Source: Eledone cirrhosa | Lineage: Eukaryota | Assembly: GCA_964016885.1 (NCBI GenBank) | Contig: OZ024756.1 | Location: 2,356,001 to 2,420,000, forward strand | Length of the DNA: 64,000 nt | Direction: 5' to 3' | In this document: positions 55,136 to 58,485 of the stretch, one piece after another | How the letters are laid out: each line of letters starts with the position of its first letter | Position numbering within the stretch: position 1 is the first letter of the stretch | The notes under the pieces: generated by a model | The model's input: only the letters and a program-made list of their open reading frames with translations | The model's database searches: none | Told to the model about the DNA's origin: nothing | Position numbers and translations under genes: made by a program

Positions 55136-55656
55136 GTGCGGGAATTCTGAAATGGAATGTTGCTGAACAAAAAGAAATGGATAGGAAGACTAGGAAGCTA
55201 ATGACTATCTACAACATGTTCCACAAGAGGAGTGATGCTGATAGACTCTACTTAAAGAGATCTGAAGGTAGAAGAGGTCTTATCAGCATAGAGGACTGTG
55301 CTCAGATGGAGAAACACAACCTGCGCAAATATGTGGCTGACAGTAGGGAGCCAATGCTCAAAATTGTACTGAATTGTACAAAATTGTACTGAAAGACAAT
55401 AGACCAGGGGATGTCCAAGGAGGAATTAAAAGGGAGGAAGAGCAACCTTCATGAAAAATCCCTTCATAGCACCTTCTTTAAGAAAACAGAATTTAGAAAT
55501 CCACAGACATGTAACTGGTTAAAAAGAGGATACCTTAAAAAAGCTACAGAAAGAATGCTAATGGCTGCGCAAGAGCAGGTCCTCAGAACGAAGTGGGTGA
55601 AACACCATATTGACAAGGAGGAGGCTAGCTCACTGTGTAGAATCTGTCAAGTTTGA
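55136..55656 (+). pseudogene. Decayed fragment of an RLE-type non-LTR retrotransposon (R4/Dong-like): RT thumb to start of the zinc knuckle
   Basis: Peptides GILKW..E..EMDRKTRKLMT...H.RSD.DRLYLKRSEGRRGL.SIED, K.LHS.FF, WLKRGYLKKATE.MLMAAQEQ.LRT and IDK....LCRIC match the post-RT motif pattern of R4-clade elements. An in-frame stop lies at a local AATTGTAC duplication (~55361-55392). The RT core and the endonuclease are absent. Confidence 0.8.
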
Positions 55657-55956: not shown

Positions 55957-56030
55957 TTGAGTGCTACTTACCTGATATTTGCATTGCTTTATTCTGCTAC
56001 AATAAAACTCACCTCCTACATTATATATAT

Positions 56031-56703
56031 ATATCAAGATAAGCAGAACAAGTAAAATTCAACTAATTTTTCAAAATAAATCAAAATTAATATACAATTA
56101 AAATTAATCAAAATTAAAAAATATAATATATTTACCTATTCAAATGGCCCTAACTGTACAGTTTCACGGTGCAAAACATTAAATATCACGAGGATATTAA
56201 TGGAAAAGCAACGATCATCAGAGAAGCATTTTCCTGTCCTAGGGTTAAAAACCCCAGGAACGACAAAATATATGACCTCACTCCAACTAATACAGGTCTA
56301 AAAGGTCGTGAAAGTGACCCGTAAATACATTGGTGTATAGTGAAGGCGGGAAATCGTAGACTCGCCGTCTATAGCTCGCCACTAAAAAAAGATTTTTAGT
56401 AACTAAATATAACGACAAATTTGTATCTCTACATACTGGAGATTATTGAAAAAGGTTAATATATATCTGAGGGTACAATGTACCCCCGGAAATATATAGT
56501 GTGTCTATGATTTAAGGTGGTTCTATGGTAATAATTTGATATACCAGAACATAATATCAAGATAAGCAGAACAAGTAAAATTCAACTAATTTTTCAAAAT
56601 AAATCAAAATTAATATACAATTAAAATTAATCAAAATTAAAAAAATATAATATAAATATTTACCTATTCAAATGGCCCTAACTGTACAGTTTCACGGTGC
56701 AAA
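56031..56703 (-). mobile_element. Retrozyme-like non-autonomous element: ~525-bp non-coding unit flanked by ~145-bp direct repeats overlapping a hammerhead
   Basis: Direct repeats at 56031-56175 and 56554-56703 differ by small indels. Each repeat carries the hammerhead 3' half and cleavage site. The interior is rich in hairpins, has no ORF in the track, and is flanked by short (TA)n. Confidence 0.75.
56142..56231 (-). ncRNA. Type I hammerhead ribozyme with long stem II and palindromic stem III
   Basis: Minus strand: AAAUGCUUCU-CUGAUGA-UCGUUGC...CAUUAAUAUC(CUCGU)GAUAUUUAAUG...GCACCGU-GAAA-CUGUACAG-UU-AGGGCCAUUU. Stem I pairs at 9 of 10 positions. Stem III ACUGUACAGU is self-complementary. Cleavage triplet GUU. 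Confidence 0.8.
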
Positions 56704-56748
56704 TATATATAATGTAGTTTATAAACAGTTTATAGGACTGGAGTATAA

Positions 56749-57072
56749 ATAATATAAAATCAAAAGATGGTTAAAAGAGTTCCATGTATTTTATTATGCG
56801 CATTTCAAAAACAAATATCATAATGGGATGATATTTGCGTTCTCATCAGATAAAATAGGGACATGATATGAAGCTTAAAAAACACTTGCGAGCAGTGAAG
56901 TGTTAAATCAACATATGTTGATTTGACACTTCACTGCTCGCAAGTGTTTTTTAAGCTTCATATCATGTCCCTATTTTATCTGATGAGAACGCAAATATCA
57001 TCCCATTATGATATTTGTTTTTGAAATGCGCATAATAAAATACATGGAACTCTTATAACCATCTTTTGATTT

Positions 57073-57080
<8 letters not shown>
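56749..57080. mobile_element. 332-bp near-perfect palindrome (166-bp arms, no spacer) with a hammerhead on each strand
   Basis: Centre AACAT|ATGTT at 56914/56915. Two arm mismatches seen by eye. The right end abuts (TA)n. Confidence 0.85.
56972..57042 (+). ncRNA. Type I hammerhead ribozyme (mirror copy on the minus strand at 56787-56857)
   Basis: Stem I UAUUUUAU/AUAAAAUA; CUGAUGA at 56980-56986; stem II GAACGCAAAUAUCAU(CCCAUU)AUGAUAUUUGUUUUU; GAAA at 57023; palindromic stem III AUGCGCAU; cleavage triplet AUA at 57032-57034. Confidence 0.82.
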
Positions 57081-57112
<32 letters not shown>

Positions 57113-57623: not shown

Positions 57624-57631
<8 letters not shown>

Positions 57632-57835
57632 TAAAATAACAGATTAAAGTTTAAGCAAAGAATCGCTGCTTTCACCCTTAACGGGATCTTCAGAAGATCC
57701 CGTTAAGGGTGAAAGCAGCGATTCTTTACTTAAACTTTAATCTGTTATTTCAATAAATATTTGCTCTAAGGTTCTTATATATTTGATATATATTTATCCT
57801 TATCGAGCCCTCTTTGGATTTTAGTCCTCAAATTT
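57624..57835. mobile_element. Palindromic element (68-bp arms, 1-nt loop, ~75-bp tail) centred on a degenerate hammerhead core
   Basis: Arms span 57624-57691 and 57693-57760 with 2 mismatches. The minus strand reads CUGAAGA-U-CCC(GUUAA)GGG-U-GAAA-GCAGCGA. Stem I and stem III are not convincing. Flanked by (TA)n and (TTA)n. Confidence 0.7.
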
Positions 57836-57883: not shown

Positions 57884-57884
<1 letters not shown>

Positions 57885-58118
57885 TAGGAAAAAGTATGAC
57901 CCCGACGGCAGAGCTCAAGCCGTTTCGACTGCTATTTCTGGACTAGCTATTTAATAGACGCCTATTTCTGGACGGCTTTTTAGTCCAGAAATAGCCGTCG
58001 AAACGGCTTGAGCTCTGCCGTCCGGATCATACTTTTTCCTATTTCCCTCTCTACTACCCTAAGTATTGAGTACTCTGGTGCGTTATGGTCCATCTGGTTC
58101 CTTACCACAATTCCTTTG

Positions 58119-58120: not shown

Positions 58121-58148
<28 letters not shown>

Positions 58149-58157
<9 letters not shown>

Positions 58158-58485
58158 TACAAATAATAATAAAATAGATATTCTTTTGATCAATTACATT
58201 TTATTATACATATTTCGAATGTACAACAGTACGTCCTCATCAGACAAAATATAATGATACATGACATACCCTGAGATGTTAAATGGTTAAGATCTGATGA
58301 GGACGTACTGTTGTACATCCGAAATATGTATAATAAATTATAATTAATCAAAAGAACATTTATTTTATTAATATTTGTATTTTAATATTAATAACTCTGG
58401 AAAATAATTTTTTTTAGCCGTAGAGTGCTTCCAATCTAATGTAAAACTCATTCTTTGATATACTCATTGAATCTTGTTTAACTCG

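What the first reader, a model, noticed from the sequence alone, without database searches (positions are those of the whole stretch)
56031..56703. Retrozyme-like ~525-nt unit: direct repeats bracket two hammerhead cleavage sites around a hairpin-rich interior
Seen: ~145-bp direct repeats 523-528 bp apart. On the minus strand both repeats contain GAAA-CUGUACAG-UU-AGGGCC, and the downstream copy is completed by CUGAUGA and a long stem II from the interior. The interior has successive hairpins (GGGTACAATGTACCC, GGTCGTGAAAGTGACC, CCTAGGGTTAAAACCCCAGG, ATACATTGGTGTAT, GGCGGG...CTCGCC) and no ORF. Inference: a unit of slightly more than one monomer is what reverse transcription around a circular RNA would leave. 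It could represent a viroid-like structured circRNA or retrozyme family.
Basis: partly seen in the sequence, partly recalled or inferred. Interest (0 to 1): 0.85.

Follow-up and report, generated by a model that had tools for sequence, protein, structure and literature searches.

The report
Hammerhead retrozyme spread by Penelope enzymes
This is one copy of a non-coding, roughly 525-base repeat that carries a predicted self-cutting RNA motif and has more than a thousand relatives inserted into TA repeats of this animal genome; their ends follow the same two-site rule as a Penelope-like retrotransposon of the same genome, so they are likely copied by such an element's enzyme, probably from a circular RNA that has not yet been detected.

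Summary
The stretch is a 5'-truncated insertion of 1.28 units of a tandem 525-528-nt unit, and only one of its two hammerhead sites has a complete ribozyme. It belongs to a dispersed family: 1,241 exact matches to a 20-mer, five subfamilies, no ORF. The type I hammerhead covaries across subfamilies. Copies have variable 5' ends but two fixed 3' ends, 126 and about 236 nt past the predicted cut, running into (TA)n. In head-to-head insertions one arm ends at each site (31 of 40). An intact Penelope-like element of the same genome obeys the same rule (16 of 16 scored). Repeats within one insertion share private variants, as expected if one unit was re-copied. Best reading: a non-LTR retrozyme mobilised in trans by a Penelope-like RT/endonuclease, probably from a circle. 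No RNA evidence was obtained and no sequence-related coding partner was found. The class is known. I did not find the end signature or a hairpin shared by about 13,000 sites in the papers searched. The scan holds no look-alike; it noted one analogous tRNA-bearing repeat in another genome.

The parts
56031..56703 (-). Whole insertion: 1.28 units, running from unit position 505 through one full unit to position 126 (5'-truncated copy)
56152..56679 (-). Monomer, predicted cut to predicted cut, 528 nt (family 525-529 nt; sister subfamilies 480-486 nt); the predicted circle
56141..56232 (-). Complete type I hammerhead: helix I with a C.C mismatch, CUGAUGA at 56215-56221, U.U at 10.1/11.1, long interrupted helix II, palindromic helix III, predicted cut after GUU between 56152 and 56151
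56669..56703 (-). Half hammerhead at the truncated 5' end: 3' strand of helix II, GAAA, helix III, predicted cut at 56680/56679; no CUGAUGA
56031..56035 (-). Site A, the main fixed 3' end (unit position 126), joined to (TA)n with AT microhomology; the same site lies internally at 56554
56444..56553 (-). The A-to-B 'tail' (unit 127-236): two hairpins; site B, the second fixed 3' end in other copies, lies at about 56444-56452
56516..56551 (-). Hairpin GUUC-UGG..CCA-UW-GAAC-CAC just 3' of site A, kept in distant families; candidate RT recognition element (inferred)
56022..56030 (.). (TA)n target remnant at the 3' junction
56704..56711 (.). (TA)n target remnant at the 5' junction

Best explanation
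This is a 5'-truncated copy of a non-coding, hammerhead-bearing tandem repeat (a non-LTR retrozyme) that is likely inserted into (TA)n by the reverse transcriptase and endonuclease of a Penelope-like element (PLE) acting in trans, probably on a circular RNA. SHOWN in the genome: a dispersed family; a covarying hammerhead; two fixed internal 3' ends (A and B); variable 5' ends; (TA)n junctions; head-to-head pairs with one A arm and one B arm; the same rule in a coding PLE; repeats of one insertion sharing private variants. INFERRED steps: (1) A locus with two complete ribozymes is transcribed. (2) The hammerheads cut, probably as a dimer through the palindromic helix III. (3) A host ligase closes the monomer, as shown for other retrozymes. 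(4) The PLE protein binds near the hairpin after site A, nicks (TA)n and primes cDNA at A or B using AT microhomology. (5) The RT runs round the template and stops at a variable point; here it stopped after 1.28 laps, which created the 145-bp repeat. (6) When both target strands prime, one starts at A and the other at B on the same template, giving a head-to-head pair.
For: Family: 1,241 exact matches to a 20-mer against 0 for the reversed control; five subfamilies 77-91% identical. Hammerhead: on 25 distinct copies 89.7% of cells pair and 7 pairs change on both sides; helix III pairs 100% with a U-A/C-G swap; slid controls give 34-43%. Helix III is a perfect palindrome in all four variants tested. 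Ends: in 64 loci picked only by the 20-mer, 57 of 89 arms end at A, 27 at B, 5 elsewhere, and 84 of 89 run into TA. Inverted pairs: 31 of 40 are A+B, with 1 A+A and 1 B+B; 38 of 40 are one subfamily; in 29 of 35 the arms are closer to each other than to the median other arm. Coding PLE (1,218-aa frame, 4,146-bp tandem period): 16 of 16 scored inverted pairs have one short-end and one long-end arm, all in TA. Re-copying: 57 variants private to one arm are present in all of its repeats (83 arms; 20 in 14 of the 45 arms of this subfamily). Two internal RT start sites that leave a tail are shown in vitro for a Poseidon PLE (PMC11167929). Circles are shown for coral, mussel and axolotl retrozymes (PMC7229834).
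Against: No coding PLE sharing the hairpin or ribozyme sequence was found: 0 of 30 loci of a second PLE family, and none in 30 loci of the first apart from one neighbouring retrozyme insertion. The partner is therefore inferred from behaviour, not homology. This subfamily's ribozyme departs from the norm (U.U at 10.1/11.1, GUU triplet), and its active fold lies 5.9 kcal/mol above the predicted minimum. The covariation test is mixed: the number of covarying pairs (7) did not exceed shuffles (226 of 500), and the sequences are related. Single A arms pile up 1-30 nt short of the cut (11 of 53, 3.3 expected; window chosen after seeing the data), which also fits a linear RNA with a cut 5' end. In the Poseidon system ribozyme cutting was not needed for insertion in vitro (PMC11167929). 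Eight of nine predicted Xenopus retrozyme dimers did not cleave (10.64898/2026.07.22.740005). Pfam found no family in the PLE protein.
Confidence: 0.65

Rival explanations
1. Same PLE machinery, but the template is a linear multimeric transcript, uncut or cut only at an upstream ribozyme. Tandem copies arise by read-through of earlier arrays or by the RT jumping back onto a cut monomer; no covalent circle is needed.
For: Single A arms stop just short of the cut on the second lap. 18 of 126 arms hold two complete ribozymes and could be sources. This subfamily's ribozyme looks weak. Unprocessed RNA was the main substrate for the anole PLE (PMC11167929).
Against: B arms do not pile up at the cut (4 of 39, 2.4 expected) but near site A (12 of 39, 4.1 expected). 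Private variants are shared by all repeats of an arm, and arrays of up to about 7 units are 99-100% identical. Plain read-through cannot renew such arrays; template jumping could.
Confidence: 0.24
2. The unit is just the pseudo-LTR or 3' end of a coding PLE, and the copies are its truncated insertions.
For: It has every insertion signature of a PLE. Xenopus retrozymes resemble pLTRs (10.64898/2026.07.22.740005).
Against: Upstream of the ribozyme there is always more unit, an inverted arm or unrelated flank. No PLE ORF is colinear in 64 plus 28 further loci. The longest ATG ORF per unit is 25-63 aa. The sample is from contig C1 only.
Confidence: 0.05
3. An autonomous viroid-like RNA replicon that is only occasionally captured in the genome.
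For: Size, self-pairing (63% of bases paired in the circular fold) and a hammerhead.
Against: The ribozyme is on one polarity only. The fold is branched. Over a thousand chromosomal copies carry PLE-type ends and form subfamilies, like an ordinary retroelement.
Confidence: 0.04
4. A DNA-level element (Helitron-type, MITE or minisatellite) amplified without an RNA step.
For: Tandem arrays, TA targets and internal hairpins are also seen in such elements (recalled).
Against: Strand-specific ribozyme covariation; fixed 3' ends with random 5' truncation; the same A+B rule as an RT-encoding element.
Confidence: 0.02

Closest known systems
Non-LTR retrozymes of animals (Cervera & de la Pena 2020, PMC7229834; Li, Clavereau & Pollet 2026, 10.64898/2026.07.22.740005)
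   Same: Non-coding tandem unit with one type I hammerhead per unit, GC below 50%, no LTR, dispersed monomers and multimers, co-occurring PLEs. A U.U pair at the base of helix II is also reported for an axolotl retrozyme.
   Different: The unit is 480-530 nt, longer than the 170-400 nt of the expressed examples but inside the 51-972 bp range of the 2026 survey. Helix II is very long and helix III is a 4-bp palindromic stem. There is no discernible target-site duplication. The two fixed internal 3' ends and the A+B inversion rule are not described in the parts I read. The circRNA is not shown here.
Penelope-like elements with endonuclease (Poseidon of Anolis, PMC11167929; structure review in PMC8557442)
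   Same: Hammerhead upstream of two internal RT start sites, a tail on one end only, partial tandems, inverted 5'-truncated copies, AT-rich or (TA)n targets.
   Different: No ORF; the tail is about 100-110 nt rather than 30-40; no sequence homology found to the two PLE families sampled here.
Non-autonomous Chlamys PLEs such as MRC1 (passage in PMC8557442)
   Same: Non-autonomous, multicopy head-to-tail insertions in microsatellites.
   Different: Those resemble their autonomous families at the 3' end, and most Chlamys lack hammerheads.
Plant LTR retrozymes (as described in PMC7761336)
   Same: Ribozyme-bearing direct repeats flank a non-coding interior.
   Different: Those have type III ribozymes, fixed LTRs of about 350 bp, a PBS, a PPT and 4-bp TSDs. 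Here the repeat length varies copy by copy and the ribozyme is type I.

Membership tests
Non-LTR retrozyme | Type I hammerhead in each unit | tested here: met
   Core, three helices and covariation. No Rfam hit. This subfamily has U.U and GUU.
Non-LTR retrozyme | [quoted passage not shown] | tested here: met
   18 of 126 arms; arrays up to about 7.4 units. The window copy itself has one complete ribozyme.
Non-LTR retrozyme | Non-coding, no LTR structure, low GC | tested here: met
   Longest ORFs 25-63 aa; repeat length varies; no tRNA gene. PBS and PPT were not searched separately.
Non-LTR retrozyme | Self-cleavage of the transcript | not testable with these tools
   Needs in vitro transcription.
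Non-LTR retrozyme | Expressed as monomeric circular RNA | not testable with these tools
   No RNA run was available to lay; genomic evidence is indirect.
PLE-mobilised element | Fixed internal 3' ends with a tail on one end, 5' truncation, inverted copies, microsatellite target | tested here: met
   same rule in a coding PLE.
PLE-mobilised element | Sequence shared with the pLTR or 3' end of an autonomous PLE | tested here: inconclusive
   None in two families sampled, 30 loci each, with flanks of 1.5 kb, nor by eye in the 3' end of a third family. Other PLE families were not sampled.
Autonomous PLE | RT plus GIY-YIG ORF | tested here: not met
Plant-type LTR retrozyme | Fixed LTRs with type III hammerheads and 4-bp TSD | tested here: not met
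   Type I topology; variable repeat length; flanks are (TA)n.
Viroid-like replicon | Ribozymes on both polarities or RNA-to-RNA replication | tested here: inconclusive
   No plus-strand core in the unit; replication is not testable here.

The most novel reading that the evidence does not exclude
A superfamily of ten thousand or more ribozyme circles shares one hairpin that recruits a dimeric Penelope-like RT/endonuclease. The enzyme primes the two strands of one (TA)n break at two staggered sites on the same circular RNA. The genome thus records directly how retrozymes hijack PLEs, and why PLE insertions carry a tail on one end only.
Probability: 0.4. Interest if true: 0.65.

Novelty: new member of a known kind. 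Interest (0 to 1): 0.45.

Why it matters
Which enzyme moves animal retrozymes is open. A 2020 review says their repeats show no conserved motif that points to the autonomous partner (PMC7761336), and the 2026 preprint argues from co-occurrence and pLTR similarity. This family gives a mechanistic footprint: two exact start sites, an asymmetric end rule shared with a young, intact PLE in the same genome, and a short candidate recognition hairpin. That makes the partner question testable with an existing in vitro assay and a 0.5-kb RNA. It could also define a compact cargo signal for PLE-based insertion into TA repeats. The single window copy is an ordinary, probably inactive insertion.

Tried and rejected
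Rfam scan: no hammerhead model hit. Sequencing runs: no RNA holder listed. Laying three contig sets of unrecorded kind showed presence only and says nothing on RNA or circles. Partner search: top hits for two PLE proteins, a nucleotide profile of the unit against their flanks and ORF scans round pattern hits gave no coding element joined to the unit. L229 looked like one but is a PLE flanked by separate tail-only pieces in TA tracts. Pattern hits 2.8 kb and 5.2 kb apart were local duplications, not pLTR pairs. The 15-nt inverted match between the window's two flanks was considered as a target signature. It is not general: 1 of 60 single arms reached 5 nt, although that test missed a 56-nt case seen. 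Pfam found nothing in the 1,218-aa PLE frame. No tRNA gene in the unit. Scan notes: nothing by sequence or place. Literature searches: retrozyme+octopus, cephalopod+Penelope+hammerhead (63), retrozyme+target-primed+microsatellite+inverted (64), Penelope-like+twin priming (76), 'non-LTR retrozyme' (86), Penelope-like+non-autonomous+tandem+TA microsatellite (87, 0 papers). No listing or text I read described this family or the two-site rule in retrozymes. The host terms were my guess from the repeat landscape; the host was not determined.

Full report
Observation. The minus-strand monomer folds more stably than dinucleotide shuffles (z -4.66 linear; -5.3 circular), the plus strand less so. Only the lower site has a whole ribozyme. 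Rfam did not recognise it.

Family. The window is G000:C17:2356001-2420000 in a 3.0-Gb genome. The stretch gave 1,452 first-look candidates, 40 of them scored, with best matches at 94-99%. The 30 loci returned were 28 distinct places, two of them a segmental duplicate. 27 of 28 end at unit position 124-126, counted from the predicted cut, and one ends at 236; all run into (AT)n, and their 5' ends vary from 1.2 to 3.3 units. A 20-mer just upstream of the core has 1,241 exact matches (control 0), and a 19-mer near the main 3' end has 2,064. 54 distinct full units fall into five subfamilies of 480-531 nt, 77-91% identical. The window's subfamily has about 33 extra nt in the U-rich tract, so its ends lie at 126 and 228-240, where the others have 91-96 and 193-204.

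Ribozyme. I aligned 25 of 48 distinct ribozyme copies, chosen to cover the variants. With the hammerhead structure named by hand, 89.7% of cells pair, 7 pairs change on both sides, and helix III pairs in every copy; slid controls give 34-43%. Cells with double changes and the covariation score beat all 500 shuffles, but the count of covarying pairs did not (226 of 500), and the copies are related. Sister subfamilies have the usual G10.1-C11.1 pair and a GUA triplet, which fixes the register. The window's subfamily has U.U and GUU, and its active fold is 5.9 kcal/mol above the minimum (3.0 for the 481-nt form, 8.1 for a 485-nt form). Helix III is a 10-nt palindrome in all four tested, which would allow the dimeric form described for animal type I ribozymes (PMC4209133). 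In the interior, 14 of 105 consensus pairs show a double change in 12 units.

Ends. To avoid picking long copies I took loci by the 20-mer alone: 24 loci from the first hits plus 40 further clusters among the 100 places listed, all on contig C1, including two locally duplicated pairs. Of 89 arms, 57 end at A, 27 at B and 5 elsewhere (two of these are split alignments); 84 run into TA. Over all loci held at that point there were 183 distinct arms and 40 head-to-head pairs: 31 A+B, 1 A+A, 1 B+B and 7 with an unclassed end. About 16 A+B would be expected if ends were independent (my arithmetic). 38 of 40 pairs are one subfamily, and in 29 of 35 comparable pairs the arms are closer to each other than to the median other arm. 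The two arms often overlap in unit coordinates, up to a whole unit. Unpaired arms are 81 A, 18 B and 4 other.

Link to Penelope-like elements. A protein fragment beside one copy retrieved a young element with a 4,146-bp tandem period and a 1,218-aa frame. [quoted passage not shown] Pfam gave nothing; the Atlas placed it beside RT, HTH_animal and GIY-YIG clusters at 0.96-0.98. Its clade was not tested. Of 17 inverted loci fetched, 16 could be scored, and all 16 have one arm at the short end and one at a longer end, in TA. This matches the one-sided tail of PLE insertions (PMC8557442) and the two internal RT start sites shown in vitro (PMC11167929). No coding element sharing sequence with the retrozyme was found. 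More distant non-coding families of about 485-560 nt share the layout and two fixed ends. They also share a hairpin just after site A, whose pattern has 13,239 matches against 3 for the control; only 30 of these loci were examined.

Circle or line. In 83 arms longer than 1.15 units, 24,282 overlapping sites show 277 differences between repeats, and 57 variants that are private to one arm yet present in all its repeats. Fewer than one would be expected from independent mutation (my estimate). Small subfamily samples inflate the count, but the window's subfamily alone gives 20 in 14 of 45 arms; the window copy has none. So repeats were copied from one unit, which fits a circle and also fits repeated template jumping or later homogenisation. 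Arm lengths pile up at 1.125-1.26 units (22 arms, against 7 and 6 in the neighbouring bins). Single A arms stop just short of the cut, mostly on the second lap; B arms stop near A. These windows were chosen after seeing the data, and AT microhomology may contribute, so they do not decide the question.

Comparison and verdict. It meets the testable criteria of a non-LTR retrozyme and behaves like PLE cargo; cleavage, expression and circularity are untested. The class and the PLE hypothesis are published. The two-site end rule and the shared hairpin were not in what I read: 10.64898/2026.07.22.740005 (parts 1-3 of 5, abstract to discussion, plus a word search), PMC7229834 (parts 2-4 of 6), PMC4209133 (parts 1-2 of 4), PMC11167929 (parts 1-2 of 4), and passages of PMC8557442, its preprint and PMC7761336. 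I saw no supplements; those of PMC7229834, PMC4209133 and the 2026 preprint may list related invertebrate families. Repbase and Dfam could not be searched and may already hold the family under another name. New member of a known kind, interest 0.45.

Noticed in passing
G000:C28:42015000-42024999 (L128): Young Penelope-like element in tandem arrays: 4,146-bp period, 1,218-aa open frame with an asparagine-rich insert, a minimal hammerhead, 150 top hits at 98-100% identity. A ready candidate for in vitro work.
   Followed up: partly
window 56744-57085, 57624-57760, 57884-58042, 58144-58393: Four near-perfect palindromes beside TA tracts. Three carry CUGANGA cores and look like short head-to-head PLE end pairs; the 57884-58042 one showed no such core.
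   Followed up: partly
window 56658-56663 (minus) and distant families L141, L147, L160, L266: A splice-donor-like motif (GUAAAU, or GUAAGU in distant families) lies about 15 nt after the predicted cut in most families seen. If spliced from there, the RNA would lose sites A and B. Untested.
   Followed up: no
L033 (G000:C1376:36000-45999), minus strand offsets 4576 and 5235: Another tandem hammerhead family with a period of about 659 nt, long helix II and palindromic helix III, in TA repeats.
   Followed up: no
L229 (G000:C1:156342000-156351500): A head-to-head PLE of a second family (Hydra-like by recalled motifs) with a tail-only retrozyme piece, about 115 nt from site A to site B, in a TA tract at both outer ends.
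   Followed up: partly
loci held from G000: Several unrelated hammerhead families in this genome have U.U in place of the usual G10.1-C11.1 pair.
   Followed up: no
window 1-48490: A 52-bp satellite of more than 800 copies at about 90% identity fills three quarters of the window.
   Followed up: no
window 55140-55650: Degenerate fragment that looks like a LINE (RTE-type, recalled) coding region on the plus strand.
   Followed up: no
L004 flanks: The two flanks of one insertion are a 56-nt perfect inverted duplicate including the TA tract; the window's flanks share 15 nt in the same way.
   Followed up: partly
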